In this document: positions 5,996 through 41,294 of the stretch, one piece after another
Layout: every line of letters begins with the position of its first letter
How positions within the stretch are numbered: position 1 is the stretch's first letter
Origin: Octopus sinensis
Lineage: Eukaryota
NCBI RefSeq assembly: GCF_006345805.1
Contig: NW_021835377.1
Coordinates: 1-41,294, forward strand
Direction: 5' to 3'
Length of the DNA stretch: 41,294 nt
Translations under genes and position numbers: made by a program
Notes under the pieces: generated by a model
Database searches by the model: none
What the model was told of the DNA's origin: nothing
The model's input: the letters and a program-made list of their open reading frames with translations, nothing else

Positions 5996-6799
5996 GTTCA
6001 TCCACCTCTGCTACTGACTTTGTTGCTCAACAATCTTTATCGTACTCCCTGGTATTTGATGAAGCCCATTTCTGTACACTTTTTTTGTTTACTGTACATG
6101 TACACCTTCCACATGCAAAAAATATTTCCCAGTTTACCTTCCTCTGATATTGCTACACCTATTATGTGTTATACAGAGTACATCTACCTACCTGTTTCCT
6201 TCATATTGAGGATGGCCATGTACCTGAAGGGCTTTACGATTTATCTGTTTTCCTACTTACTAAGACTTTGGGTTATGGTTGGGTAGGTTAATTCTGTGAC
6301 CTTTCAATTCTAGACCTTGCTTCCGTACGCACAATTTGTTTTCTAGTTCTGGTAGTGATTTAGCTATAAGAAGAAGCTCATTAGTAAATAAGTGTGAAAA
6401 CTCTTTGCTTTCACAAACACTTTATGTACACTGATTGAAGCAATGAAAAAAAAAGGTCCTCGGTATACATGAAACGTGAAGGAAAATATTTGGATAATGA
6501 AACTAATAATGTATGGGTAATTGAATGTAATGTAATAAATGATAATATATGAGTGTTCAGTTGTCATCCTCTATGCCCTCCCCAATTCCTTTGAGAGAAG
6601 CAAAGAAGACTAATAATATGTATTAAATGATTAACGAAAATAATAATTAGTGCAAGAGACCCTTAATCAATATTGACGGTGTGACGATCAAGGAGCAATG
6701 TGTCAGTTATGCATCAGGCTTTTAGTCTTTTGTGAGTCTGGCAGAGCGACTAACAGGACAATTGCTGGATGGAGGATAAACTGCATCAGGCAAGGGTCA

Positions 6800-8567: not shown

Positions 8568-8966
8568 TTAACCCAAGTTATCTCCATGGTGGTCTTTGGC
8601 ATGTTGGTAGAGTATAGAAGACTGTTTTCTGTCGTCAAGTTGTCTTAGATGTTCATTTATCCGTTCCGCAATGCTCTTAGACATCTCCTCTATGTACATC
8701 ATGTTCATGTCCTTACAAGCACCTTCTATGCATCTTATATTGTAAACTACACTTCGAGTTCTACAGTTAATACCAGGGCTAATTCTACATGTCATGCAGT
8801 TATCAATTGTGCATATGGTATTCTTAAACGGACATTCCTTCATAATGTGTGACCTGATGGAGTTCCTTGGCTTTTCAACAATTTTAATGTTGAGTTTGGT
8901 CTCTTTCAGAGCTTTTCTAAATCTAAGGGCTAGTTCTCCATGGGCTGTGGTCTCTACTAATATCAC
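8568..8966 (-). mobile_element. Penelope-like element GIY-YIG endonuclease remnant
   Basis: CTIDNCMTC...CRTRSVVYNIRC...MYIEEMSKSIAERINEH...SILYQHAKDHH: Cys linker plus the VVY/YIG, R..EH and H motifs of Penelope GIY-YIG domains. Confidence 0.85.
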
Positions 8967-9067
8967 TCCTTGAATTTTTACTGGTGAGTGTGTATTTAAT
9001 AATAAGGCACTAAAAGAGAAAGACTCTCCCCAGACACAAACAGAATATCACTGTTTTCGCTAATTAC

Positions 9068-11134: not shown

Positions 11135-11562
11135 TGTGTGTGTGTGTGATGAGTGTTTTTATTTCTGTGTCTCCAATATAGCCTCGGACAGACCCAACAT
11201 TTCTGAGTAGATTTGGTACACGGAAAAAGAAAGTAGCCCGTGGTATATAGATAGGTGTGTATATATATATATACTAAGTAATTAAGGTTTAGCACGATTT
11301 GCCTCACCACACACCGAGTTATAGAAAGAGCAGTCAAAGAGTTATAGCTATTCTTTCTACTAAAAGGGAATCTCAGTAAAACCACACACTTAAAGGCTAT
11401 TTCTAAACTCGGTGTGTGTTGAGGCAAATCGTTGCTAAACCCTTAATTACATTGTATTACTTGAACTTTCTTCGAATGGGGCTTTTACATACAGAAATCT
11501 ACTTGGTGAAATTAATGATTATTGCAAATTAATTAATTTCTCCCTATATTATTACTGATAAC

Positions 11563-17145: not shown

Positions 17146-18958
17146 AAACTTAGATAAAACTTAGAATATGTTTCGACAAAGATTGGTCCAGGCTATGTCT
17201 AACTTAATAGCCCACCATTTAATAGGATTATTCGAATCCTGTTTAAGTCAAGTTTTGTTCAAGTAGTGAGTTCTTGTTGGGTGAGTTGTATCCAGTTTTG
17301 TTCAAGTAGTGAGTTCTTGTTGGGTCAGTTGTATCCTATTATGGGTGGCTTATCTGGTATTCTTTGAAGGAATCTATCCAGACTCCGTTTAAAGTTGATG
17401 GGATCCTTTTCCTCTTTGATCTCTTTCGGACAATGTTAATAGGGCATGGCCTGTTGAGGAAAGAAATTATGTTGCAGTGTACATGTATGTTGTCATCTTG
17501 AATTGGGCAGGGGACGTATAGCCCGTGGTCCAAGTTTGGATGAACCTTGAAGCTATGTTTAGGTCGTTTGGGCATAGTTGGCGTATATTTTCCCACATCG
17601 TCAAATGATGTACCGCTCACGGCAACGCTGGAGGGAGTAAAGTTTCAAGGCTTTACGGACGGGGATCCCAATAATCGAGAGCAGCATGCCTTCAATTCGT
17701 TTAGTGAGAGCCCCTGGGGCTGGGACTCAATTCTGGAGATATTTTGTCTTGTGTGGGAGACCACAGTGGGCAGCAGTATTCAAGGTGTGGCCGTACAAAG
17801 GAAGAAAAAGTGGTATGATGACACCTTGTTCTCTGGACCGGAAAGTTCTTAAGATCCAGGAACTCATCCTACGAGCTATATCGACCTTCTTGTTGATGTG
17901 TGCACTCCAACTGAGATCGTCATCAACAATACACCCAGGTCTCTGATATTGTTAGAGGCTGTGAGCGGTTCCCCTGAAGGAAGAGAGTATGGCTGTTTAG
18001 TGAGGAGTTTCTTCCAAAATGCATCAGCTCAAATTTTCCCTCGTTCAGTTGCATTTTGTTTCTGTCTGCCCATTGACTCACAGCATATAGATCAGACTGG
18101 AGTTGAGTTCGGTCTGCTTCTTCATTGACGATTGCTGGAGCTTGGTGTCATCAGCAAATATTTTCACTTTGCAGTAATGTACGACACTGGAAAGGTCGTT
18201 TATGTAGATTATGAAGAGTAGCGGACCCAAGACAGTCCCCTGGGGGACACCGCTGGTGACTTTTGCTGGGCTTGAGTGGACTCCATCAACTACAACATGT
18301 TGTGTTCTATTCGCAGGAAATACTTGATCCAGTGTAGAACTTTTCCACGGATTCCAACATTTGCCAATTTTGAGAGTAGGATATTATGGTCTACGCTGTC
18401 GAACGCTTTACTGAAGTCAAGATATATGACATCAGAGTTCGAACCTGTTCCCAAGGCTTTGAGTACATCTTCAATGTGTTGTAAGAGCTGTGTTAGACAG
18501 TCCCTGCCACAGCGAAAGCCATGCTGATTTGCATTTAGTAGTTTCTGGGTCTCCAGGAAGTCAGCCATCCTTGATCTTAACACTCTTTCAAACACTTTGA
18601 TGATGTGGGAGGTGAGTGAGATTGGGCGATAGTTGAGTGCGAGGGATCCGTTTCCCTGTTTGAAAACCGGGATGATTGACTGGGATAGAAACTGTTTTGG
18701 TATATAACATGCATCTAACCAATTTCTCCAGAGGTTGGTCAGTGGGACTGCAGGTTGGTGTTTACATTCCTTCAGGAGACTAGCGGGGAATCTATCAGGG
18801 CCTACAGCAGAGTAGTATTTGACCTCATTTATTGCTGCTACGATGTCAGTGGGAGTGAAGGTTATGTCTGCAATTTTGTGTTGGGAGTCAACTTCGTTCG
18901 TTTCTCTTGCGTCAATATCAGTGGGAACACTAAAGACAGCAGTATTTTTTCTGCAATA
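17146..18958 (-). mobile_element. 5'-truncated CR1-clade LINE (RT and C-terminus), copy 1
   Basis: ORF 18290-19048 has NYRPISLTSHIIKVFER, NQHGFR..RDCLTQLL and VIYLDFSKAFD, followed by GVPQGTVLGPLLF, FADDTK and VRPHLEYCCPLWSP. Short tandem tail (CTAAGTTT(T)AT). Frameshifted. Confidence 0.92.
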
Positions 18959-19571
18959 TATATATAGAGAGAAACATGTATATACATATAGATATTTATA
19001 TATATGTATATGTGTGTATGTTTCGGTGTCCCCAAAACCGCCTGACAACCAATGCCGATGTTTTTCTCACTGTTAACTTATCCGTTCGGGAAAAGCAGAC
19101 CAACAGAATTAATACTAGACTGACGTAGATAAAGGTCCTAGTGTCGATTTGCTCTAGAAAAGCTGTGCTCCAGCATTGGCACAGCGAAATGACTAAACAA
19201 GGAAAACAGCAAAAGTGTATGCGTTACGTCTGAACATTATATTGTAGAGTTAATTAGCTTCCATAATACATTTTGATAATCGTCGTTACGTATTTAAATG
19301 TAAGGGAGGTAACTTTTGAATATTTTTCTTAGTTATCTCCCTTTCTAGAGTTACACCCCATGCATATTATTAATTATTAAATTATATAATATGCAAGGTA
19401 AGTCACTTGCGAAGGAAGATAACTCCGAAATCTTCCAGAGTTACTTCCGTTACATCTAATTAAATTATGATATTCAAGGGAAGTAACTCTAGAAAGAGAA
19501 ATAGGTACAAAATTTTGCAGAGTTACTTCACTTACATGTAATTACATTACGATTGGTGTTCCGGTTGGGGT

Positions 19572-19650
19572 TGGATTAGGGTTATGGTTGTGGTTAGGGT
19601 TAGGGGGTTAGGGTCAGGGTCGGGGTTAGGTTGGGGTTAGGGTTAGTGTT
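19572..19650 (+). repeat. Degenerate (TTAGGG)n telomere-like tract
   Basis: TTAGGG, TCAGGG, TTGGGG, TTATGG and TTAGTG variants in tandem. Confidence 0.85.
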
Positions 19651-22600
19651 AGCCTCGTTCACACATCATGCGTCCATACAAACACGCCTCGTTCACCGCC
19701 ATGCGTTCATACAAACAAGGCTCGTTCACCCGTCATGCGTCCATACAAACAACCTGGTTCATACACCATGCGTCCATACATACACGCCTCGTTCACACAT
19801 CATGCGTCCACACAAACAAGCCTCGTTCACACATCATGCGTCCATACTCGCCTCGTTCACACATCATGCGTCCACACAAACAAGCCTCGTTCACACATCA
19901 TTCGTCCATACAAACAGGCCTCGTTCATACATCATGCGTCCATACATACACGCCTCGTTCATACATCATGCGTCCATACACGCCTCGTTCAAACATCATG
20001 CGTCCACACAAACAAGCCTCGTTCACACATCATTCGTCCATACAAACAGGCCTCGTTCATACATCATGCGTCCATACATACACGCCTCGTTCATACATCA
20101 TGCGTCCATACACGACTCGTTCAAACATCATGCGTCCACACAAAGAAGCCTCGTTCACACATCATGCGTCCATTCAAACAGGTCTCGTTCACCCGTCATG
20201 CGTCCATACAAACAAGCCTCGTTCACACATCATTCGTCCATACAAACAAGCCTCGTTCACACATCATTCGTCCATACAAACAAGCCTCGTTCACACATCA
20301 TGCGTCCATACATACACGCCTCGTTCACACATCATGCGTCCATACAAACAGGCCTCGTTCACACATCATGCGTCACACAACCAAGCCTCGTTCAAACATC
20401 ATGCGTCCATAACAACAAGCCTCGTTCACCCGTCATGCGTCCATACAAACAAGCTCGTTCACACATCATGCGTCCATACACACATGCCTCGTTCACACAT
20501 CATGCGTCCATACACACAAGCCTCGTTCACACATCATGCGTCCATACACGCCTCGTTCACACATCATGCGTCCACACAAAGAAGCCTCGTTCACACATCA
20601 TGCGTCCATTCAAACAAGCATCGTTCACACATCATGCGTTCATACAAACAAGTCTCGTTCACCCGTCATGCGTCCATACAAACAAGCCTCGTTCACACAT
20701 CATTCGTCCATACAAACAAGCCTCGTTCACACATCATTCGTCCATACAAACAAGCCTCGTTCACACATCATGCGTCCATACATACACGCCTCGTTCACAC
20801 ACATCATGCGTCCATACAAACAGGCCTCGTTCACCACATATGCGTCCACACAACCAGCCTCGTTCACACATCATGCGTCCATAAACAAGCCTCGTTCACC
20901 CGTCATGCGTCCAAACAAACAAGCCTCGTTCACACATCATGCGTCCATAAACACAGCTTCGTTCACAATATGCGTCATACACACAAGCCTCGTTCACACA
21001 TCATGCGTCCATACACGCCTCGTTCACACATCATGCGTCCCACAAAGAAGCCTCGTTCACACATCATGCGTCCATTCAACAGGTCTCGTTCACCCGTCAT
21101 GCGTCCATACAAACAAGCCTCGTTCACACATCATTCGTCCATACAAACAAGCCTCGTTCACACATCATTCGTCCATACAACAAGCCTCGTTCACACATCA
21201 TGCGTCCATACATACACGCCTCGTTCACACATCATGCGTCCATACAAACAGGCCTCGTTCACACATCATGCGTCCACACAACCAAGCCTCGTTCAAACAT
21301 CATGCGTCCATACAAACAAGCCTCGTTCACCCGTCATGCGTCCATACAAACAAGCCTCGTTCACACATCATGCGTCATACACACATGCCCGTTCACACAT
21401 CATGCGTCCATACACACAAGCCTCGTTCACACATCATGCGTCCATACACGCCTCGTTCACACATCATGCGTCCAACACAAAGAAGCCTCGTTCACACATC
21501 ATGCGTCCATTCAAACAAGCATCGTTCACACATCATGCGTTCATACAAACAAGTCTCGTTCACCCGTCATGCGTCCATACAAACAAGCCTCGTTCACACA
21601 TCATTCGTCCATACAAACAAGCCTCGTTCACACATCATTCGTCCATACAAACAAGCCTCGTTCACACATCATGCGTCCATACATACACGCCTCGTTCACA
21701 CATCATGCGTCCATACAAACAGGCCTCGTTCACACATCATGCGTCCACACAACCAAGCCTCGTTCACACATCATGCGTCCATACAAACAAGCCTCGTTCA
21801 CCCGTCATGCGTCCAAACAAACAAGCCTCGTTCACACATCATGCGTCCATACACACAAGCTTCGTTCACACATCATGCGTCCATACACACAAGCCTCGTT
21901 CACACACATCATGCGTCCATACACGCCTCGTTCACACATCATGCGTCCACACAAAGAAGCCTCGTTCACACATCATGCGTCCATTCAAACAATCATCGTT
22001 CACACATCATGCGTTCATACAAACAAGTCTCGTTCACCCGTCATGCGTCCATACAAACAAGCCTCGTTCACACATCATGCGTCCATACAAACAGGCCTCG
22101 TTCACACATGCGTTCATACGAACAAGCCTCGTTCACACATCATGCGTCCATACAAACAAGCCTCGTTCACACATCATGCGTCCATACAAACAGACCTCGT
22201 TCACACATCATGCGTTCATACAAACAGGCCTCGTTCACACATCATGCGTCCATACAAACAGGCCTCGTTCACCCGTCATGCGTCCATGCAAACCAGCCTC
22301 GTTCACACATCATGCGTCCATACAAACAGGCCTCGTTCACACATCATGCGTCCATACAAACAGGCCTCGTTCACACATGCGTTCATACGAACAAGCCTCG
22401 TTCACACATCATGCGTTCATACGAACAAGCCTCGTTCACACATCATGCGTCCATACAAACAGGCCTCGTTCACACATCATGCGTTCATACAAACAAGCCT
22501 CGTTCACACATCATGCGTCCATACAAACAGGCCTCGTTCACACATCTTGCGTCCATACACACAAGCCCCGTTCACACATCATGCGTCCATACAAACAGGC

Positions 22601-23268
22601 CTCGTTCACACATCATGCCTCCATACAAACCAGCCTCGTTCACACATCATGCGTCCATACAAACAAGCCTCGTTCACACATCATGCGTCCATACAAACAA
22701 GCCTCGTTCACCCGTCATGCGTCCATACAAACAAGCCTCGTTCACCCGTCATGCGTCCATACAAACAATGCTCGTTCACCCGTCATGCGTCCATACAAAC
22801 AGGCCTCGTTCACACATTATGCGTCCATACAAACAAGCCTCGTTCACACATCATGCGTCCATACAAACAATGCTCGTTCACCCGTCATGCGTCCATACAA
22901 ACAGGCCTCGTTCACACATCATGCGTCCATACAAACAAGCCTCGTTCACCCGTCATGCGTCCATACAAACAATGCTCGTTCACCCGTCATGCGTCCATAC
23001 AAACAAGCCTCGTTCACACATCATGCGTCCATACAAACAAGCCTCGTTCACACATCATGCGTCCATACAAACAGGCCTCGTTCACACATCATGCGTCCAT
23101 ACAAACCAGCCTCGTTCACACATCATGCGTCCATACAAACAAGCCTCGTTCACACATCATGCGTCCATACACACAAGCCTCGTTCACACATGCGTCCATA
23201 CACACAAGCCTCGTTCACACATGCGTTCATACATACAATCCTCGTTCACACACCATGCGTCCATACAT
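19651..23268 (+). repeat. 34-bp tandem satellite, ~107 monomers, consensus GCCTCGTTCACACATCATGCGTCCATACAAACAA, with higher-order repeats
   Basis: Monomer read directly; 30- and 31-bp variants are present; marker CAAAGAAG recurs at 20141, 20577, 21043, 21478 and 21952. Confidence 0.97.
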
Positions 23269-23278
23269 AGATTTTCAT

Positions 23279-23600
23279 AAATTCAGGGACATTTAATTCA
23301 GGGGCAGGTAATTAAGGGACAGGTATTCCAGGGGCAGGTAATTCAGGGGCATGTAATTCAGGGGCAGGTAATTGAGGGGCAGGTAATTCAGTGGCAGTTA
23401 ATTATGGGGAAGGTAATTCAGGGCAGATAATCCAGGGGCAGGTAATTCAGGGGAAGGTAAATCAGAGGAATATAAATGAGGGTCAGGTAATCCAGGGTTA
23501 CGTAATTCAGGGGCAGGTAATTTACAAGTGCATGTAATTCAGGGTCATATAACTCGGGGGCAGGTGATTCAGGTGCATGTAACTCAGGGGCAGGTAAGTT
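23279..23600 (+). repeat. 15-bp G-rich minisatellite (AATTCAGGGGCAGGT)n, ~21 degenerate copies
   Basis: Direct reading. Confidence 0.92.
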
Positions 23601-24370: not shown

Positions 24371-26140
24371 TATTGCAGAAACATACTGCTGCTGTCTTTA
24401 GTGACTCCCAACACAAAATTGCAGACATAACCTTCACTCCCACTGGCATCGTAGCACAGCAATAAATGAGGTCAAATACTACTCTGCCGTAGGCCCTGAT
24501 AGATTCCCAGTTAGTCTCCGGAAGGAATGTAAACACCAACTTGCTGTCCCACTGACCAACCTATGGAGGAATTCATTAGATGCAGGTTATATACCAAAAC
24601 AGTTTCTATCCCAGTCAATCATCCCGGTTTTCAAACAGGGAAACGGATCCCTCGCACTCAACTATCGCCCAATCTCACTCACCTCCCACATCATCAAAGT
24701 GTTTGAAAGTGTTAAGATCAAGGATGGCTGACTTCCTGGAGACCCAGAAACTACTAAATGCAAATCAGCATGGCTTTCGCTGTGGCAGGGACTGTCTAAC
24801 ACAGCTCTTATACCACATTGAAGATGTACTCAAAGCCTTGGGAACAGGTTCGAACTCTGATGTCATATATCTTGACTTCAGTAAAGCGTTCGATATCCTA
24901 CTCTCAAAATTGGCAAATGTTGGAGTCCGTGGAAAAATTCTACAGTGGATCAAGTATTTCCTGGCGAATAGAACACATGTTGTAGTTGATGGAGTCCACT
25001 CAAGCCCAGCAAAAGTCACCAGCGGTGTCCCCCAGGGGACTGTCTTGGGTCCGCTACTCTTCATAATCAACATAAACGACCTTTCCAGTGTCGTACATTA
25101 CTGCAAAGTGAAAATATTTGCTGATGACACCAACTCCAGCAAATCGTCAATGAAGAAGCAGACCGAACTCAACTCCAGTCTGATCTATATGCTGTGAGTC
25201 AATGGGCAGACAGAAATAAAATGCAACTGAACGAGGGAAATTTGAGCTGATGCATTTGGGAAGAAACTCCTCACTAAAACAGCCATACTCTCTTCCTTCA
25301 GGGGAACCGCTCACAGCCTCTAACAATATCAGAGACCTGCGTGTAATTGTTGATGACGATCTCAGTTGGAGTGCACACATCAACAAGAAGGTCGATATAG
25401 CTCGTAGGATGAGTTCCTGGATCTTAAGAACTTTCCGGTCCAGAGAACAAGGTGTCATCATATCACTTTTTTCCTCCTTTGTACGGCCACACCTTGAATA
25501 CTGCTGCCCACTGTGGTCTCCTCACACAAGACAAAACATCTCCAGAATTGAGTCCCCAGAGGGCACTCACTAAACGCATTGAAGGCATGGCTGCTCTCGA
25601 TTATTGGGATCGCCTTAAAGCCTTGAAACTTTACTTTACTCCCTCCAGCGTCGCCGTGAGCGGTACATCATTTGTACGATGTGGAAAATATACCGTCAAC
25701 TTTGCCCAAACGCCCTAAACATTAGCTTCAAGGTTCATCCAAGACTTGGACCACGGCTATACGTCCCCTGCCCCCAATTCAAGATCACAACATACATGTA
25801 CACTGCAGCACAATTTCTTTTCCTCAACAGGCCCTGCCCTATTTAACATTGTCCCGAGAGAGATCAAAGAGGAAAAGGATCCCATCAACTTTAAACAGAG
25901 TCTGGATAGATTCCTTCAAAAATACCAGATAAGCACCCATAATTGGATATAACTCACCCAACAAGAACTCACTACTTGAACAAACTGGATACAACTCACC
26001 CAAGAACTCACTACTTGAACAAACTTGACTTAAACAAAACTTGACTTAAACAGGATTCGAATAATCCTATCAGGTGGTGCTATTAAGTTAGACATGGCCT
26101 GGACCAATCTTTGGTCGAAACATATCTAAGTTTATCTAAG
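24371..26140 (+). mobile_element. 5'-truncated CR1-clade LINE, copy 2 (inverted duplicate of 17146-18958)
   Basis: ORFs 24580-25197 and 25250-25573 carry the same RT motifs. It has the same 5' truncation point (ATATTGCAGAAA), the same upstream flank and a CTAAGTTTATCTAAG tail. Confidence 0.92.
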
Positions 26141-26299
26141 TATATATAATAATATATATATAATATATTATATATATATACATACATACATATACAACAT
26201 GAGAAAATGGAGAATACATCTAAATCATTAATCAATTATCAGATAATACTTTATTAAACCCTGTCTCAATTTGTATATATATACATATATATTATTATA

Positions 26300-26334
<35 letters not shown>

Positions 26335-26340
26335 ATATAT

Positions 26341-29042
26341 AATTTCAACAATTGAGGGCAAAATTAATTAATTATTAATCAATTTCACCAAGTGTTCAGT
26401 ATGCAAAGGGACCATTCAAGGCGAATTCAAATTATTACATTATATAAAAGGGCTTAGTAAAATAAATTACTTTGCCGCATACTGAACTCATTAGAAATAG
26501 CAGCTAAAAAACTTTTTTAAAACTATTTCTAATACTTAAAGAAAATCTCTCTCATATATAGTGTTTGCTTAATTCAACTCACAAAAGTTTGGGGGTAAGG
26601 ACATCGAAAAATCAAATGCTAAGGTTATTCGAGAACGTACGTTTCAAGATTAGTCAAAACAACATTTCTATCATCGGCTCAGAAATTCCTTGGTTTGGAT
26701 TTGGAAACACTGAAAATAAGAACATACCCTTTCGAAGATCTGCTTCCAACTAACAGTGCCAACAAATTCAAATAAGCAAGCGAAGAATCTCTGTTCTCCC
26801 CTTTCCACCAGCGTGGGTTAAAATCATCAAACACTATGCTTATTTCGATTTCGGTAAAATCCGAAGCATTAATCAGAGGGAGATTAATTATAATTTCAAT
26901 CAACAATTGAGGGCAAAATTAATTAATTATTAATCATTTCACCAAGTGTTCAGTATGCAAAGGGACCATTCAAGGCGAATTCAAATTATTACATTATATA
27001 AAAGGGCTTAGTAAAATAAATTACTTTGCCGCATACTGAACTCATTAGAAATAGCAGCTAAAAAACTTTTTTAAAACTATTTCTAATACTTAAAGAAAAT
27101 CTCTCTCATATATAGTGTTTGCTTAATTCAACTCACAAAAGTTTGGGGGTAAGGACATCGAAAAATCAAATGCTAAGGTTATTCGAGAACGTACGTTTCA
27201 AGATTAGTCAAAACAACATTTCTATCATCGGCTCAGAAATTCCTTGGTTTGATTTGGAAACACTGAAAATAAGAACATACCCTTTCGAAGATCTGCTCCC
27301 AACTAACAGTGCCAACAAATTCAAATAAGCAAGCGAAGAATCTCTGTTCTCCCCTTTCCACCAGCGTGGGTTAAAATCATCAAACACTATGCTTATTTCG
27401 GTTATTTCGGTAAAATCCGAAGCATTAATCAGAGGGAGATTAATTATAATTTCAACAATTGAGGGCAAAATTAATTAATTATTAATCAATTTCACCAAGT
27501 GTTTAGTATGCAAAGGGACCATTCAAGGCGAATTCAAATTATTACATTATATAAAAGGGCTTAGTAAAATAAATTACTTTGCCGCATACTGAACTCATTA
27601 GAAATAGCAGCTAAAAAACTTTTTTAAAACTATTTCTAATACTTAAAGAAAATCTCTCTCATATATAGTGTTTGCTTAATTCAACTCACAAAAGTTTGGG
27701 GGTAAGGACATCGAAAAATCAAATGCTAAGGTTATTCGAGAACGTACGTTTCAAGATTAGTCAAAACAACATTTCTATCATCGGCTCAGAAATTCCTTGG
27801 TTTGGATTTGGAAACACTGAAAATAAGAGCATACCCTTTCGAAGATCTGCTCCCAACTAACAGTGCCAACAAATTCAAATAAGCAAGCGAAGAATCTCTG
27901 TTCTCCCCTTTCCACCAGCGTGGGTTAAAATCATCAAACACTATGCTTATTTCGGTAAAATCCGAAGCATTAATCAGAGGGAGATTATTATATAATTTCA
28001 ACAATTGAGGGCAAAATTAATTAATTATTAATCAATTTCACCAAGTGTTCAGTATGCAAAGGGACCATTCAAGGCGAATTCAAATTATTACATTATATAA
28101 AAGGGCTTAGTAAAATAAATTACTTTGCCGCATACTGAACTCATTAGAAATAGCAGCTAAAAAACTTTTTTAAAACTATTTCTAATACTTAAAGAAAATC
28201 TCTCTCATATATAGTGTTTGCTTAATTCAACTCACAAAAGTTTGGGGGTAAGGACATCGAAAAATCAAATGCTAAGGTTATTCGAGAACGTACGTTTCAA
28301 GATTAGTCAAAACAACATTTCTATCATCGGCTCAGAAATTCCTTGGTTTGGATTTGGAAACACTGAAAATAAGAACATACCCTTTCGAAGATCTGCTCCC
28401 AACTAACAGTGCCAACAAATTCAAATAAGCAAGCGAAGAATCTCTGTTCTCCCCTTTCCACCAGCGTGGGTTAAAATCATCAAACACTATGCTTATTTCG
28501 GTAAAATCCGAAGCATTAATCAGAGGGAGATTAATTATAATTTCAACAATTGAGGGCAAAATTAATTAATTATTAATCAATTTCACCAAGTGTTAGTATG
28601 CAAGGGACCATTCAAGGCGAATTCAAATTATTACATTATATAAAAGGGCTTAGTAAAATAAATTACTTTGCCGCATACTGAACTCATTAGAAATAGCAGC
28701 TAAAAAACTTTTTTAAAACTATTTCTAATACTTAAAGAAAATCTCTCTCATATATAGTGTTTGCTTAATTCAACTCACAAAAGTTTGGGGGTAAGGACAT
28801 CGAAAAATCAAATGCTAAGGTTATTCGAGAACGTACGTTTCAAGATTAGTCAAAACAACATTTCTATCATCGGCTCAGAAATTCCTTGGTTTGGATTTGG
28901 AAACACTGAAAATAAGAGCATACCCTTTCGAAGATCTGCTCCCAACTAACAGTGCCAACAAATTCAAATAAGCAAGCGAAGAATCTCTGTTCTCCCCTTT
29001 CCACCAGCGTGGGTTAAAATCATCAAACACTATGCTTATTTC
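26341..29042 (-). repeat. Left arm of the palindromic array: ~4.9 tandem copies of a ~545-554-bp non-coding unit (ribozyme strand is minus)
   Basis: The same short ORF recurs at 26565, 27119, 27672, 28218 and 28761; the arm begins directly after (TA)n. Confidence 0.97.
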
Positions 29043-31168
29043 ACTTGGTGAAATTGATTAATAATTAATTAATTTTGCCCTCAATTGTTGAAATTATAAT
29101 TAATCTCCCTCTGATTAATGCTTCGGATTTTACCGAAATAAGCATAGTGTGTTGATGATTTTAACCCCGCTGGTGGAAAGGGGAGAACAGAGATTCTTCG
29201 CTTGCTTATTTGAATTTGTTGGCACTGTTAGTTGGGAGCAGATCTTCGAAAGGGGTATGTTCTTATTTTCAGTGTTTCCAAATCCAAACCAAGGAATTTC
29301 TGAGCCGATGATAGAAATGTTGTTTTGACTAATCTTGAAACGTACGTTCTCGAATAACCTTAGCATTTGATTTTTCGATGTCCTTACCCCCAAACTTTTG
29401 TGAGTTGAATTAAGCAAACACTATATATGAGAGAGATTTTCTTTAAGTATTAGAAATAGTTTTAAAAAAGTTTTTTAGCTGCTATTTCTAATGAGTTCAG
29501 TATGCGGCAAAGTAATTTATTTTACTAAGCCCTTTTATATAATGTAATAATTTGAATTCGCCTTGAATGGTCCCTTTGCATACTGAACACTTGGTGAAAT
29601 TGATTAATAATTAATTAATTTTGCCCTCAATTGTTGAAATTATAATTAATCTCCCTCTGATTAATGCTTCGGATTTTACCGAAATAAGCATAGTGTTTGA
29701 TGATTTTAACCCACGCTGGTGGAAAGGGGAGAACAGAGATTCTTCGCTTGCTTATTTGAATTTGTTGGCACTGTTAGTTGGGAGCAGATCTTCGAAAGGG
29801 TATGTTCTTATTTTCAGTGTTTCCAAATCCAAACCAAGGAATTTCTGAGCCGATGATAGAAATGTTGTTTTGACTAATCTTGAAACGTACGTTCTCGAAT
29901 AACCTTAGCATTTGATTTTTCGATGTCCTTACCCCCAAACTTTTGTGAGTTGAATTAAGCAAACACTATATATGAGAGAGATTTTCTTTAAGTATTAGAA
30001 ATAGTTTTAAAAAAGTTTTTTAGCTGCTATTTCTAATGAGTTCAGTATGCGGCAAAGTAATTTATTTTACTAAGCCCTTTTATATAATGTAATAATTTGA
30101 ATTCGCCTTGAATGGTCCCTTTGCATACTGAACACTTGGTGAAATTGATTAATAATTAATTAATTTTGCCCTCAATTGTTGAAATTATAATTAATCTCCC
30201 TCTGATTAATGCTTCCGGATTTTACCGAAATAAGCATAGTGTTTGATGATTTTAACCCACGCTGGTGGAAAGGGGAGAACAGAGATTCTTCGCTTGCTTA
30301 TTTGAATTTGTTGGCACTGTTAGTTGGGAGCAGATCTTCGAAAGGGGTATGTTCTTATTTTCAGTGTTTCCAAATCCAAACCAAGGAATTTCTGAGCCGA
30401 TGATAGAAATGTTGTTTTGACTAATCTTGAAACGTACGTTCTCGAATAACCTTAGCATTTGATTTTTCGATGTCCTTACCCCCAAACTTTTGTGAGTTGA
30501 ATTAAGCAAACACTATATATGAGAGAGATTTTCTTTAAGTATTAGAAATAGTTTTAAAAAAGTTTTTTAGCTGCTATTTCTAATGAGTTCAGTATGCGGC
30601 AAAGTAATTTATTTTACTAAGCCCTTTTATATATGTAATAATTTGAATTCGCCTTGAATGGTCCCTTTGCATACTGAACACTTGGTGAAATTGATTAATA
30701 ATTAATTAATTTTGCCCTCAATGTTGAAATTATAATTAATCTCCCTCTGATTAATGCTTCGGATTTTACCGAAATAAGCATAGTGTTTGATGATTTTAAC
30801 CCACGCTGGTGGAAAGGGGAGAACAGAGATTCTTCGCTTGCTTATTTGAATTTGTTGGCACTGTTAGTTGGGAGCAGATCTTCGAAAGGGTATGTTCTTA
30901 TTTTCAGTGTTTCCAAATCCAAACCAAGGAATTGCTGAGCCGATGATAGAAATGTTGTTTTGACTAATCTTGAAACGTACGTTCTCGAATAACCTTAGCA
31001 TTTGATTTTTCGATGTCCTTACCCCCAAACTTTTGTGAGTTGAATTAAGCAAACACTATATGAGAGAGATTTTCTTTAAGTATTAGAATAGTTTTAAAAA
31101 AGTTTTTTAGCTGCTATTTCTAATGAGTTCAGTATGCGGCAAAGTAATTTATTTTACTAAGCCCTTTT

Positions 31169-31172
<4 letters not shown>
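29043..31172 (+). repeat. Right arm of the palindromic array: ~3.9 tandem copies of the same unit, inverted (ribozyme strand is plus)
   Basis: Reverse-complement copies with ~545-bp period; the arm ends in (TA)n. Confidence 0.97.
29298..29354 (+). ncRNA. Variant minimal type I hammerhead ribozyme. Representative of 9 copies: + at 29298, 29843, 30390, 30933; - at 26628-26684, 27182-27238, 27735-27791, 28281-28337, 28824-28880
   Basis: Stem I UUC(U)GAG/CUCGAA; core CCGAUGA (U4C); stem II UAGA...UCUU (U-U closing); GAAA; palindromic stem III CGUACG; cleavage triplet GUU. Confidence 0.6.
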
Positions 31173-31200
<28 letters not shown>

Positions 31201-32762: not shown

Positions 32763-33323
32763 TGGCGCGACCGGGTGCTTGGCGGTATAACCGGGTGGGC
32801 AGACTGGGCTCGTTAGCCTTGGTTGACAGCCAGTCTAGGAGAAGGAAAACTCTGACTCCAAACCCTCGCTCCGCTGCCTTGCGGATGCTCTTGGGAGAGG
32901 GAAAGGCTATGGGAGTAAACCCAGACAGAAAATCCGGAGTGGAGCCCTGAAGGCGGTAGGGTGTCGAATCTCGACCCTTTTCCGGCAACTCCTGCAGCCA
33001 ACCAGACTCCAAACGTACTGCACTGCATTCCTTTGGATTATGTCTGGGGGCCCGAGAGGGAGATTCTGGTGTCTGGGCAGCCCAGTGTCTTCGTTCCTAC
33101 CGCCCAGGCTTGCGCCATGGAGAAACTACTCCATCGATGGAACAAGCTGAGATGGCAGTTACGAGTTTTAAGCCAGGGTGAATTGGCGTAATCCCGGGCG
33201 CTACGGGTCTCTAACGGTGGGAGGGATCATTGAAGTCCCACTGGTCAGCTACCGCCCGCCTTAAGCTGGGCACCCCCCGGCCAATAATGGTGCTAAGCCG
33301 CCACAGACTGCCCGCTTCAATGG

Positions 33324-36300
33324 GTGCTTGGAGCTAGGACAAAATCTGAAAAGCAGACTGAAAACCCTGCACCAGCAAACAAAGGAAAAACAAATACCCA
33401 GTCTCCAGTCTTGCGACTGGCCACCTGGAATGTCAGGACCATGTGCCCTGGCATCATTGACGATCTACGACAGATGAACGACAGTAGGAAGACAGCAGTC
33501 ATCAACACCGAATTGAAAAGGCTGAACATCGACATAGCGGCGCTGCAAGAGACCAGGCTCGCCGCAGACGGCATGCTACGGGAGAAGGACTACACCTTCT
33601 ACTGGCAGGGGAGACCCGTCGAGGAGGCCCGCCAGCATGGCGTGGGGTTTGCCGTGAGGAACAGCTTGCTCCCCATGGCGATCCCTCCTTCAAATGGCTC
33701 AGAGCGCATCCTCACTCTTGGCCTTGCAACATCAACGGGGAAGGTAAACATAATTAGTGCTTATGCCCCAACACTCCACTCTCCTCAGAAAATAAAAGGC
33801 CGGGTCTATGAGGAGCTCGCGCCACCATCAGCCAGATACCAGGGTCGGAGCCCATCTTCCTTCTGGGCGACTTCAACGCAAGGGTGGGATGATTCGATCA
33901 TGGGGCATGGCCAGACTGCCTTGGACGCTTTGGCGTGGGGAAGATGAATGAGAATGGCCAGAGACTGTTGGAGCTTTGCTCTTACCGGAAACTCTGCGTT
34001 ACCAACACATTCTTCACGACTAAGCCACAACACCGGGTCTCATGGAGGCACCCAAGGTCCGGACACTGGCACCAACTGGACATGGTCATCACCCGGCGAG
34101 CCCACCTCGGCAGTGTGCTTCTCACACGCAGCTACCATGGTGCTGACTGTGATACAGACCACTCTCTTGTGTGCAGTAGGGTCCGATTGGCCCCAAAGAA
34201 AATCCGCCGTCCCGTAGGGAAAAGCCGCCCACGCATCAACACCGCCAGGACAACCAACCCCGACCTCCGCTCGGAATTCACCAACCGCATGGAGGAGGCC
34301 CTTAAAGATCACGCAGCCACGTCCATCGAGGAGAGATGGCAGCTTATTCGCGACACCACTTGCAGAATAGTCATGTCATCCCTAGGAAAGAGGGAGCGGA
34401 GAAATCAAGACTGGTTTGAGGCTCACCTGCCTGAGATGGAGCCTGTCATTGCTGCCAAGAGGGAAGCACTGGTCAACTATAAGCGCGACCCATCAGAAAA
34501 GAACCTGGCTACTCTAAGAACAGCCAGAAGTGACGCCCAGAGGACGGCCAGACGTTGCGCCAACATCTACTGGCAGAACCTATGCCAGAACATCCAGTGC
34601 TGTGCTGACAGTGGTAACGTGAAAGGGATGTACGAGGGGATGAAGAAGCATTCAGGCCCACTGTCAGCAAGGTTGTTTTACTGAAGTCCAGGGATGGCGA
34701 GGTCATCAAGGACCAAGCGAAGCAGATAGAGAGGTGGGTCGAGCATTACCAGAACCTCTACTCCACTGAGAATGTGGTCACCAGGTCTGCCCTCGCCGGC
34801 ATTCCTGCTCTGCCTGTCATGGAGGAGCTTGACCTGCCTCCAACAAAGGAAGAACTGAGCAAAGCAATTGACTCACTCGCTCGGGGCAAGGCACCAGGGC
34901 AAGACGGCATCCCCGCAGAAGTCATTCAGTGCGGGAAGCCAGCCCTTCTGGGCCATCTCCACGAGCTGCTCTGTCAGTGCTGGGAGGAGGGCTCTGTCCC
35001 TAAGGATATGCGTGACGCAAACATCATCACACTGTATAAAAACAAAGGGGACAGAAGCGACTGTAATAATTACAAGGGCATATCCCTGCTCAGCACTGTC
35101 GGTAAGGCATTTGCCAGGGTGGTCCTGAAGAGGTTGCAAATGCTTGCAGAGCGTGTGTACCCCGAGTCTCAGTCTGGCTTTAGGGCAGAGAGGTCTACAA
35201 TCGACATGATCTTCTCACTCAGGCAGCTTCAAGAAAAGAGTCGAGAACAGAGCAGCCCCTATACGTGGCCTTCATCGACCTGGCTAAGGCGTTCGACTCA
35301 GTCAGCAGGGAGGGGCTGTTTGCGCTCCTGGGTAGGATATGTTGCCCTCCCAGACTGCTGAAACTCATCACCTCCTTTCACGATACGGTATGCAGGGAAC
35401 AGTGCAGTTTGACGGATTGCCCTCGGAGTCGTTCGCCATCCAGAGTGGAGTGAAACAGGGTTGCGTTCTGGCGCCGACGCTCTTCGGAATTTTCTTCTCC
35501 CTTGTCCTGTCCTATGCCTTCAGAACGTCCGACGACGGAGTGTTCCTCCACACCAGGGCTGATGGTGGGTTGTTCAATCTTGCGCGCCTCAGAGCTAAGA
35601 CCAAAGTCCGTCAGGTGCTGATCAGAGAGATCCTCTTTGCTGACGATGCCGCCCTAACATCACACAACCAGCCGGGTCTCCAGAGGCTGTTCAGCTCCCT
35701 GGCGGATGCCTGCCAAGAGTTCGGCCTTACCATCGGCCTGAAAAAGACAGAGATCATGGGCCAGGACGTCGGAGGGGTCCCCAGCATCAGTGTCGGCGAC
35801 CACAGCTTGCAGGTGGTGAACGAGTTCACTTACCTGGGATCGACGGTCTCCAGCAGCCTGTCCCTCGAGCCGGAGCTGAACAGACGGATTGGGAGGGCTG
35901 CTGCTGCCATGGCTAAGCTCTCCAGGAGAGTGTGGGAAAACAACATGCTCACAATAACCACCAAGATCGCGGTGTACCGAGCCTGCGTGCTGAGCACCCT
36001 ACTCTACGGCAGCGAGAGCTGGACAACATACACCCGGCAGGAATGCCGCCACATGCGGTGTCTTCGACGGATCCTTGGCATCTCCTGGAAGGACCCAGTA
36101 CCAAACGGAGTCATCCTGGAACAGACTAATATGCCAAGCATGCATGCCCTCCTCGTGCGGAGACGACTGCGCTGGCTCGGACACGTCTGCCGCATGCAGG
36201 ACGGTCGCATGCCTAAAGACATCCTGTACAGCGAACTCACCACGGGATCCCGACCCAAGGGACGTCCACAGCTACGATACAGGGATGTGTGCAAGCGCGA

Positions 36301-36556
36301 CCTGAGGACTGCCAACATCTGTGTGGACACGTGGGAGGTAACAGCTGCTGGCCGCTCTGCCTGGCGTCGGACAGTGAGGAAAGGCGTTTCCATGGCTGAG
36401 GAAAGGAGAGCACAGCCGTGGTCGGACAGGAGGAGGACAACTGCAGCAACACCCCACACGTACCCATCGATGTTCGTGTGCAGCAACTGTACCAGGGACT
36501 GCCACTCTAGAATTGGACTGTTCAGTCACAGCAGACGCAGCACATCATCAAAGTAG
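33324..36556 (+). pseudogene. RTE polyprotein (APE endonuclease, reverse transcriptase, C-terminal C2H2), frameshifted
   Basis: ORFs 33324-33947 (LATWNVRTM, DIAALQETR, GVGFAV), 33935-34684 (HWHQLD, DTDHSLV), 34774-35361 (KNKGDRSDCNNYKGISLL, QSGFR) and 35339-36556 (GVKQGCVLAPTLF, LFADDA, CSNCTRDCHSRIGLFSH). Confidence 0.93.
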
Positions 36557-40151: not shown

Positions 40152-41294
40152 CTAGCAGCATAGCCCGGCGTTGCCCGGGTATGTAAGAGCCCCTAATAGG
40201 CAACGACTAATCCCAATGTAGTCCTTTCCCTCCAGGGAACGAAGGTGCATGTGGACGTTGCAATGTCTTGTCTTCACTGGAATACTTCTGTATATACGAT
40301 GTTCCTAGCTGTCCGTTTGGGCGAAAACATGAAAACATCATTGCGCCTCCCAACGCGTGAACAGCCCACGTAGAGTTGACCGTGGGCGAAGCACTGTTCG
40401 CCCAAATGTAACCCAGCGACTTGTAGCGTTTGGCCTTGGGATTTATTGATGGACATTGCGAAGCAGAGTTTAACAGGAAACTGAGAACGCCTGAAGTGGA
40501 TTGAAGGTGCATCCGGCCGCCGTTATTAAATGTGGTGCCAAATGTTTCACAACCAAACGTGTGCCGTTTGCACTGTTTAGGTGGAACCAAATTCCTGATG
40601 AGCATAATGGGCGCACCGACTTTTAACTTCAGGATGTGTGGTGGCAGGCCTGGCGGTTCAAGTGAATTCAGGAATTCAACAGGATAATCGGCAAGCCGGG
40701 CGGGGTCTGCTGTCTATCTATAGATTTGTAGACGTGGACATCACCAGGAATAGCTTCAAGTAGCTGGACATTGATGGAGTTGACGGTTGTATTTTTGGGT
40801 GCGAGAATAGCTCTGCCTGCCAGCCATTTTAGGTCGCGTAAATTGTTTGTAGGTCGTGGAAGACAGCGTCCCGGAGGCTAACAGGGGTGTCGACAATGGT
40901 GCAAAGTGAGTCCAATTGAACGTAGCCATCCGCATCAGACAGCATCCTATTTTCACCGAGCGATAAGAGGTCCCTGGAGAATGCAGCGGATCCGCTGTCA
41001 CCAATTAACTGCGCGCGCATGTTAGTTTGGAGGTGCAAGGGCCGCACATGTGCCAAAGAGCTGACGACTTAAGGCACGCGCACACGGCATCGGCACGGGT
41101 TCCTGTTGGAATAACAGTAGAGTCTGCCTGAAGTCTCCTGAAAGAAGTAAAGTTAATCCTCCCATGGGGGGGACCGTAGAGTCTCTGATGTCTTGCAGGG
41201 ACCTGTCCAGTGCCTCAAGGGCGCCTTTGTGTGCCATAGTGCACACGTCCCATACGATGAGCTTGCATCTGCGCAGAATGTCAGCCTGTTCTGA
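40152..41294 (-). mobile_element. Helitron 3' end: frameshifted Pif1-like helicase C-terminus, terminal hairpin and CTAG; runs off the window
   Basis: Helicase motifs [49 protein letters not shown] and [11 protein letters not shown]...[13 protein letters not shown]...NIVYTEVF*. Hairpin CCCGGGCAACGCCGGG (40179-40164), then CTAG (40155-40152) followed by T. Confidence 0.95.

What the first reader, a model, noticed from the sequence alone, without database searches (positions are those of the whole stretch)
29298..29354. Non-canonical hammerhead (CCGAUGA core, palindromic stem III) in every array unit
Seen: UUCUGAG-CCGAUGA-UAGA..UCUU-GAAA-CGUACG-UU-CUCGAA. Stem I closes exactly around the core, and AACGUACGUU is a 10-nt palindrome. 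It deviates from the consensus by U4C and a U-U pair in place of the usual G10.1-C11.1. The core is identical in all nine copies. Known: minimal Penelope hammerheads with palindromic stem III cleave efficiently as dimers. Inference: the tandem arrangement would let neighbouring units form dimeric ribozymes and cut a multimer into monomers, and the variant core could be missed by CUGANGA descriptors.
Basis: partly seen in the sequence, partly recalled or inferred. Interest (0 to 1): 0.85.

Follow-up and report, generated by a model that had tools for sequence, protein, structure and literature searches.

The report
Deviant hammerhead in young Penelope-type retrozyme
The motif is a hammerhead-ribozyme fold, predicted to cut only weakly, carried in every unit of a young, non-coding ~546-base jumping element that has thousands of relatives in this genome, and the way its copies end suggests that a borrowed Penelope-type enzyme likely copies one RNA from two fixed start points at once.

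Summary
All nine ~546-bp units carry CCGAUGA...GAAACGUACGUU with a closing stem I, and the predicted cut lies after 29348. It is a type I hammerhead by comparison. The genome holds 3133 exact family matches, 2126 of them with canonical CUGAUGA. Sister families at 57-60% identity have a textbook core (G10.1-C11.1, GUC), and 8 of 14 pairs change on both sides. Its fold is predicted to be the least favoured of the family, so it probably cleaves weakly; each departure has precedent on its own. The element is a non-LTR retrozyme, most likely a non-autonomous Penelope-like element. It is dispersed, inserts in (TA)n and forms head-to-head tandem arms. 101 of 103 arms end at two fixed sites ~198 and ~297 nt past the cut, and 35 of 39 two-armed insertions use one site each. 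This points to both target strands being primed on one, probably circular, RNA. Cleavage, circles and the partner enzyme are not shown. Known class, new variant, informative footprint.

The parts
29298..29354 (+). Type I hammerhead, first + copy: stem I 5' strand 29301-29304, core CCGAUGA 29305-29311 (U4C = 29306), stem II U.U plus AGA/UCU (29312-29315 with 29333-29336), GAAA 29337-29340, palindromic helix III, N17 = U29348, predicted cut 29348/29349, stem I 3' strand 29349-29352
   Evidence: register from covariation
29843..29899 (+). Hammerhead copy 2 (+)
30390..30446 (+). Hammerhead copy 3 (+)
30933..30989 (+). Hammerhead copy 4 (+), T>G in outer stem I
28824..28880 (-). Hammerhead copy 5 (-)
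28281..28337 (-). Hammerhead copy 6 (-)
27735..27791 (-). Hammerhead copy 7 (-)
27182..27238 (-). Hammerhead copy 8 (-)
26628..26684 (-). Hammerhead copy 9 (-)
26338..29042 (-). Left arm, ~5 tandem units, 3' end outward at site S2 (~297 nt past the cut), 5' end truncated at the inversion point
29042..31178 (+). Right arm, ~3.9 tandem units, 3' end outward at site S1 (~193-198 nt past the cut), 5' end truncated at the inversion point
26338..26442 (-). ~100-nt 'tail' (S1 to S2), terminal on the left arm only
26274..26344 (.). Left (TA)n target microsatellite, overlapping the TATA at S2
31168..31197 (.). Right (TA)n target microsatellite, overlapping the TATA at S1

Best explanation
The motif is a type I hammerhead fold in each unit of a young non-coding ~546-bp tandem element (a non-LTR retrozyme) that is likely mobilised by a Penelope-like retroelement enzyme, and the window's U4C/U.U/GUU form is a derived version predicted to cleave weakly, best as a dimer and probably with protein help. 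Proposed cycle. (1) A tandem array is transcribed (inferred; only contig-level hints). (2) Neighbouring hammerheads pair through the palindrome and cut after GUU, releasing monomers or short multimers (inferred). (3) These are ligated into circles (inferred from known retrozymes). (4) A PLE reverse transcriptase/GIY-YIG dimer nicks both strands of a (TA)n run and primes one strand at S1 and the other at S2 of the same RNA, helped by a TATA match. The two fixed ends and their one-each use are shown; the enzyme and the dimer are inferred. (5) Both cDNAs run round the template past the ribozyme junction for up to several units, stop at random and are joined head to head. The architecture is shown; the circle is inferred.
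For: Hammerhead identity: 3133 exact matches (control 0), 1007 with CCG. A sister family at 57-60% identity has CUGANGA, G-C at 10.1/11.1 and GUC at the same place. On 22 rows, 93.2% of cells pair and 8 of 14 pairs change on both sides; no shuffle of 500 reaches the pairing or covariation score, and slid registers give 25-47% pairing. The palindrome centre changes TA>CG and stays palindromic (L127), and N17 is C, A or U across families. U4C is derived: 18 CCG rows form one clade (90/97) among CUG rows. It arose a second time in the sister family, in 6 of 9 copies of one sub-clade and 0 of 22 outside it. The fold is still maintained: stem I pair 2.4-1.4 goes U-A to U.G (window) to C-G in a CCG sub-clade, and a nested CUG sub-clade has G.U and GUA. 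PLE footprint: 101 of 103 arms end at S1 or S2 against (TA)n; of 39 two-armed insertions 35 are S1+S2, 2 S2+S2, 0 S1+S1 and 2 other (binomial 35/37 p=5e-9). The sister family ends at the same distances. PLE tails arise from two internal start sites (PMC11167929), and tandem/inverted insertions, a tail at one end and (TA)n bias are PLE traits (PMC8557442). One template per insertion: 26 locus-private substitutions are in all covering units, 13 of them across both arms. Four loci share a variant at the same rank from the 3' end in both arms (L184, L174, L205, L172). 5' ends do not pile up at the cut (1 of 103 within 8 nt). Dimer is favoured over two monomers by 11.6 kcal/mol.
Against: No cleavage, circle or RNA end was observed. 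The four laid runs are contigs only guessed to be RNA. The window form's active fold is predicted 9.8 kcal/mol above a misfold, and the dimer is still 12.6 above the free fold. U4C lowers activity in vitro (PMC3088659), and mutations in the CUGA turn gave low activity (PMC9901934). In the one reconstituted PLE, ribozyme cleavage was not needed for insertion, start sites were not homologous to the target and did not differ by strand (PMC11167929). 8 of 9 Xenopus retrozyme dimers did not cleave in vitro (10.64898/2026.07.22.740005). No autonomous PLE with a matching pLTR was found. The tail (~99 nt) is longer than the usual 30-40. The rank-matching rests on 5 loci with one mismatch (L187), and my systematic count showed no excess (3/97 vs 6/140, p=0.74; it used locus majority, so it skipped L184 and L205). 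Arm length does not differ clearly between CCG and CUG forms (p=0.24-0.28).
Confidence: 0.6

Rival explanations
1. Same PLE-dependent element, but in this subfamily the ribozyme is effectively dead or dispensable. Uncut multimeric transcripts (with template jumps) are the templates, and U4C spread by hitchhiking on a successful source copy.
For: Three departures from consensus plus the largest fold penalty. HHR mutants did not affect insertion in vitro (PMC11167929). Rank-matched and period-2 variants show that templates were sometimes multimers (same-arm even 4/116 vs odd 1/259, p=0.03). U4C is tolerated twice.
Against: A compensatory C-G in stem I was fixed after U4C. None of the ~24 heritable CCG substitutions listed hits the core, though under 1 is expected by chance. 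Linear copying with 5' truncation should shrink arrays, yet the youngest subfamily (1.0% divergence) has 5-6-unit arms. A viroid tolerates U4C in vivo (PMC3088659).
Confidence: 0.27
2. PLE machinery inserts only ~1-2 units, and the long arrays and their uniformity arise afterwards at the DNA level, by unequal crossover and gene conversion between the inverted arms (the satellite route proposed by Li et al. 2026).
For: Conversion in a cruciform would also give rank-matched variants. Period-2 patterns could be two-unit duplications or assembly effects. One related locus has 22 listed units in one arm.
Against: The youngest subfamily has arms at least as long as older ones. Haplotypes are uniform across both orientations. 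Multimers are common across dispersed loci.
Confidence: 0.1
3. Mobilised by a LINE or by a DNA-based route, with the (TA)n context incidental.
For: No matching PLE partner was found, and LINEs are abundant in the window.
Against: No poly(A) or LINE-like 3' tail. Two fixed internal ends with one-per-arm use and head-to-head arms match PLEs (PMC8557442). Intact PLEs in this genome also end in (TA)n, one sampled copy ~30 nt short of the others.
Confidence: 0.03

Closest known systems
Non-LTR retrozymes of metazoans (Cervera & de la Pena 2020, PMC7229834; Li, Clavereau & Pollet 2026, bioRxiv 10.64898/2026.07.22.740005)
   Same: Non-coding tandem repeats with one type I hammerhead per unit, low GC, short palindromic helix III; proposed circular RNA template and PLE mobilisation. 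Axolotl HHR_Amex2 also has a 2-bp helix III and a U.U at the base of helix II, and cleaves better as a dimer.
   Different: Unit 545-603 bp (Cervera's are 170-400; within Li's 51-972). U4C plus GUU on top of U.U. In the parts read, neither paper describes two fixed 3' ends, head-to-head arms or (TA)n targeting for retrozymes. Cleavage and circles were shown there and not here.
EN+ Penelope-like elements and their non-autonomous derivatives (e.g. Chlamys MRC1; Craig et al. 2021, PMC8557442); Poseidon PAc (Frangieh et al. 2024, PMC11167929)
   Same: 5'-truncated tandems with an inverted 5'-truncated copy, a tail often at one end only, (TA)n bias, a hammerhead upstream of two internal RT start sites.
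   Different: No ORF. Tail ~99 nt rather than 30-40. Ends share TA microhomology with the target. One-site-per-arm use is quantified here (35/37), whereas PAc showed no strand difference in vitro. No pLTR homology to an autonomous element was found.
Minimal PLE hammerheads (Cervera & de la Pena 2014, PMC4209133)
   Same: Type I, palindromic 15.2-16.2 region, expected to work as dimers, low activity.
   Different: The window form has a 2-bp helix III with tetraloop, no extra base between 9 and 10.1 in the covarying register, no G10.1-C11.1, and a short helix II.
Natural core variants (Perreault et al. 2011, PMC3088659)
   Same: U4C is known in a viroid (lower in vitro activity, still infectious); U10.1-U11.1 is known and is the best-tolerated mismatch.
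   Different: Here they are combined with GUU and amplified to 1007 genomic copies, with U4C arising twice.

Membership tests
Type I hammerhead ribozyme | Three helices around CUGANGA/GAAA/NUH, open stem I | tested here: met
   Topology and covariation; C3, G5, A6, G8, A9, GAAA and U16.1 invariant in 22 rows
Type I hammerhead ribozyme | U4 of the CUGA turn | tested here: not met
   C4 in the window; U4 in 2126 of 3133 family matches; U4C is a known natural variant (PMC3088659), so this lowers predicted activity, not homology
Type I hammerhead ribozyme | G10.1-C11.1 pair | tested here: not met
   U.U in the window, G-C in the sister family, G.U in a nested sub-clade
Type I hammerhead ribozyme | Rfam hammerhead model at gathering score | tested here: not met
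   No hit; sub-threshold RF00163 on the sister family only
Type I hammerhead ribozyme | Site-specific self-cleavage | not testable with these tools
   Needs a transcription assay; contigs show no ends
Non-LTR retrozyme | Tandem repeat with a type I hammerhead in every unit | tested here: met
   9 of 9 units
Non-LTR retrozyme | No protein coding, GC below 50% | tested here: met
   No ORF of 100 aa or more in 26338-31178; GC 0.33-0.34
Non-LTR retrozyme | Unit size | tested here: inconclusive
   546 bp: above 170-400 (PMC7229834), inside 51-972 (Li 2026)
Non-LTR retrozyme | Expressed as circular RNA | not testable with these tools
   No holder on record as RNA; contigs cannot show circles
Non-autonomous Penelope-like element | 5'-truncated tandems with adjacent inverted copy | tested here: met
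   39 two-armed head-to-head insertions among 64 scored
Non-autonomous Penelope-like element | Two fixed 3' ends (tail), often on one end only | tested here: met
   101/103 arms, 35/39 one each; tail ~99 nt instead of 30-40
Non-autonomous Penelope-like element | Microsatellite (TA)n insertion bias | tested here: met
   3' flanks; one arm (L166, ending at position 122) lacks a TA flank
Non-autonomous Penelope-like element | Homology to the pLTR of an autonomous PLE | tested here: inconclusive
   None among 75 PLE-bearing loci, nor any PLE ORF continuous with the element in 260 family loci; the sample is small against 5029 GIY-YIG candidates
Minimal PLE hammerhead (min-HHR) | No or very short helix III, extra base after A9, G10.1-C11.1, long helix II | tested here: not met
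   2-bp helix III with GUAC loop, U.U, 3-bp helix II

The most novel reading that the evidence does not exclude
This family is a genomic record of how Penelope-like elements integrate. One RT-endonuclease dimer primes both nicked strands of a (TA)n target on a single circular RNA, at two sites 99 nt apart, and the two cDNAs chase round the circle and are joined head to head. That would explain tandems, inversions and the one-ended tail at once. Its hammerheads form a natural activity series in which the U4C turn variant has been amplified twice, as a protein-assisted or deliberately slow ribozyme that lets dimer circles form.
Probability: 0.4. Interest if true: 0.75.

Novelty: new variant of a known kind. 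Interest (0 to 1): 0.52.

Why it matters
What hammerheads do in Penelope-like elements, and how their tandem and inverted insertions form, are stated open questions (PMC8557442). That PLEs move retrozymes has so far been argued from co-occurrence and pLTR similarity. This family adds a direct integration footprint: fixed double start sites, one per arm, conserved across families 57-60% alike. It also offers a ready-made natural series of ribozymes (GUC/G-C, GUA/G.U, GUU/U.U, plus U4C, plus a compensated stem), each amplified in vivo, on which the need for cleavage can be tested.

Tried and rejected
Rfam: nothing at gathering score; only sub-threshold RF00163 on the sister family.

Partner search. 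The PLE family of the window's own GIY-YIG fragment (30 loci) and GIY-YIG loci, including an intact 781-aa family (45 loci), share no pLTR sequence with the element; the matches seen were separate retrozyme insertions nearby. A near-complete PLE between two arrays (L286/L287) is an unrelated neighbour with its own repeats.

'Weak ribozyme gives longer arrays' was not supported: Mann-Whitney p=0.28 (insertion length) and 0.24 (longest arm), 30 vs 34 insertions. A post hoc cut at 2 kb gave 7/29 vs 1/34 (p=0.02), but the family with the best predicted fold has the longest arm seen.

'G.U/GUA is the intermediate on the way to U.U/GUU' was rejected by the tree, which nests it inside the U.U clade (the root rests on a distant outgroup and the bootstrap had not settled).

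'A-to-I editing drives the family's evolution': no A>G excess among within-locus variants (16 A>G vs 16 T>C, p=0.48). A systematic test of rank-matched variants was null.

Local folding gives no unusual stability (z -0.08), so folding alone is no evidence. No RNA holder is listed, and the RNA-versus-DNA comparison of editing remains open. Lunse et al. 2017 could not be read. Two look-ups of earlier scan findings returned nothing.

Full report
Observation. The motif is present at 29298-29354 and in all nine units of an array spanning 26338-31178: five units on the - strand and four on the +, joined head to head at 29042, with both 3' ends running into (TA)n. The core, stem II region and palindrome are identical in 9 of 9 copies, but whole units are 98-100% identical, so this shows common origin, not selection. 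A relaxed descriptor finds 9 in the window and 0 in 150 Markov controls. No ORF of 100 aa or more lies in the array. Rfam has no hit at gathering score.

Is it a hammerhead? The pattern CYGATGA-N14-40-GAAACGTACGTY has 3133 exact matches in the genome, control 0. 1007 have CCG, so 2126 have the canonical CUGAUGA. An older element elsewhere in the window (11240-11560) led to a sister family of 577-603-bp units, 57-60% identical to the window unit. It carries at the same place a textbook hammerhead with 6-bp stem I, G10.1-C11.1 and GUC (392 matches, control 0). A further form with G10.1.U11.1 and GUA made up 70 of the first 100 rows of a looser search (1036 matches, control 43) and is 90-93% identical. 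On 22 hand-picked distinct haplotypes, 93.2% of cells pair and 8 of 14 pairs change on both sides. No shuffle of 500 reaches the pairing or covariation score, 4 of 500 reach the pair count, and slid registers give 25-47% pairing. Most double changes separate the two families and so count as few events; some occur within families (stem II G-C/A-U swaps, palindrome centre TA>CG, stem I pair 2.4-1.4).

History of the deviant core. In a tree of 43 whole units, the 18 CCG rows form one clade (90/97) among CUG rows, so U4C is derived (bootstrap not settled, distant outgroup). The subfamily is young: 1.0% substitution divergence against 3.2% for CUG. U4C arose again in the sister family. With position 4 left free, only T (94) or C (6) appeared in the first 100 rows, and among 31 fetched copies C was in 6 of 9 of one sub-clade and 0 of 22 others (that tree is unresolved there, and one locus has C and T in adjacent units). 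After U4C, a sub-clade converted the window's U.G in stem I to C-G. The G.U/GUA form nests inside the U.U/GUU clade, which reads as a return towards consensus. Both suggest the fold is still under selection. Against strong activity: the active fold costs 9.8 kcal/mol over a misfold that buries GAAA, against 7.8 (C2.4 form), 3.8 (CUG), 2.2 (GUA form) and 1.8-3.2 (sister). The dimer fold beats two monomers by 11.6 kcal/mol but remains 12.6 above the free fold (ViennaRNA ignores tertiary contacts and proteins).

The element. I fetched 60 loci from contig C1 that hold a complete core, added two neighbouring arrays, and scored them with the window: 64 insertions, 103 arms. Numbering from the predicted cut, 51 arms end at S1 (~193-211), 50 at S2 (~293-305) and 2 elsewhere. 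20 of the S2 arms were scored 312-315 through gapped extension into the TA run; I reassigned them to S2 because ends 19 of them at 295-297, and the twentieth (L287) ends at 293. Of 39 two-armed insertions, 35 are S1+S2, 2 are S2+S2, none S1+S1 and 2 involve another end (35/37, p=5e-9). The window follows the rule: left arm at S2, right arm at S1. In the sister family, 6 of 8 two-armed insertions are S1+S2 at the same distances from the cut. Both sites end in TA, matching the target. 5' ends are scattered; 1 of 103 lies within 8 nt of the cut. The ribozyme site therefore defines neither end of an insertion.

Template. Within an insertion the haplotype is nearly always uniform: 305 variants shared with other loci are in all covering units against 14 in some, and 26 locus-private variants are in all units, 13 of them across both arms. 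A minority are uneven in an informative way. In L184, L174, L205 and L172 a variant sits at the same rank from the 3' end in both arms; in L187 it does not. L153, L172, L169 and the window show variants two units apart. This fits both strands being primed in the same unit of one RNA, sometimes a multimer or dimer circle. It rests on few events. A systematic count was null for cross-arm matching (3/97 vs 6/140) and weak for period 2 (4/116 vs 1/259, p=0.03). Gene conversion between inverted arms or assembly effects could mimic it.

Expression and partner. No holder is on record as RNA. Four runs guessed as RNA cover most of the unit as contigs; none can show ends or circles. One contig in X16 differs from the ribozyme's 3' half only by 9 A>G changes in 30 nt, including GAAA, as hyper-editing of sense RNA would give; it is a single contig without a DNA control. 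The genome holds a young intact PLE family (781-aa RT plus GIY-YIG, 98-99% identical copies) that also ends in (TA)n and has its own U3-A8 hammerhead, but it shares no DNA similarity with this element. The partner is unidentified.

Comparison with the literature.
- PMC4209133 (parts 1-2 of 4 read): PLE hammerheads, low activity even as dimers, circles proposed.
- PMC7229834 (parts 2-4 of 6): non-LTR retrozymes, circles shown, axolotl HHR_Amex2 with U.U and 2-bp helix III, PLEs proposed as movers.
- 10.64898/2026.07.22.740005 (parts 1-3 of 5, all main text): retrozymes as non-autonomous PLE derivatives; no mollusc sampled; 1 of 9 dimers cleaved.
- PMC11167929 (parts 1-2 of 4): two internal start sites make the tail; predicted dimer; ribozyme protein-assisted and dispensable in vitro.
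- PMC8557442 (passages): tandem/inverted insertions, tail often at one end, (TA)n bias.
- PMC3088659 (one section and passages): natural U4C and U.U.
- PMC9901934, PMC3884650, PMC6765202, PMC13282606: passages only.
Searches for octopus+hammerhead+Penelope, retrozyme/Penelope/cephalopod, twin priming with circles, PLE dimer and tail since 2023 and CCGAUGA listed no description of this family or of one-site-per-arm priming. Subscription journals and all supplements were not seen, and supplementary hammerhead alignments could contain it. That GUU is the weakest NUH triplet is recalled, not from a call. The host is probably a cephalopod (my guess; untested).

Verdict. Real feature, known class (non-LTR retrozyme, working like a non-autonomous PLE), new variant. 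The hammerhead homology is close to certain. That the window form cleaves usefully in vivo is about 60-65% likely.

Noticed in passing
window 11240-11560: Short head-to-head insertion of the older sister retrozyme family, in (TA)n, one arm ending at S1 and the other at S2, without reaching its hammerhead.
   Followed up: yes
window 8568-9047 (-): GIY-YIG end of an old, broken Neptune-like PLE family (4542 candidates) with its own 3' end; not related to the retrozyme.
   Followed up: partly
L271-L275 (e.g. L271 2032-4374 +): Young intact PLE family, 781-aa RT+GIY-YIG ORF, 98-99% identical copies, U3-A8 hammerhead variant about 70 nt before a (TA)n-abutting 3' end; a usable enzyme candidate for in vitro work.
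   Followed up: partly
window 29328-29357, run X16: Contig end with 9 A>G changes in 30 nt destroying GAAA; a second A>G-rich end near 29969. Looks like ADAR hyper-editing of double-stranded RNA from the inverted arms; single contigs, no DNA control.
   Followed up: partly
G000:C2:27922321-27935781: One arm of the G.U/GUA subfamily with 22 listed units over 13 kb plus a short inverted arm: the longest array seen.
   Followed up: no
L149, L141, L145 loop II: The sister family's long loop II contains a conserved GGTAAG, a splice-donor-like hexamer, absent from the window family; PLE pLTRs are known to hold introns.
   Followed up: no
L274 ~340-430, L284 ~6040-6085, L314/L320/L322: Further hammerhead-like motifs of other repeat families, including another CCGACGA...GUU form and U3-A8 cores with palindromic helix III.
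   Followed up: no
window 33297-36556 (+); 18078-19066 (-) and 24405-25573 (+): Frameshifted LINE elements: one near full length with endonuclease and RT, RTE-like by recall; two RT fragments in opposite orientation either side of the 34-bp satellite.
   Followed up: no
window 19563-23597: GGTTAG repeats (15 copies) abutting a 34-bp satellite (108 copies) and a 15-bp satellite; telomere-like or subtelomeric arrangement on an unplaced contig.
   Followed up: no
window 40207-40713 (+): ORF piece resembling a Helitron PIF1 helicase (recalled motif, not searched).
   Followed up: no
window 26893-27501 (-): Two left-arm units are 553-554 bp rather than 543-547, so they carry small insertions not seen in the other seven.
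   Followed up: no
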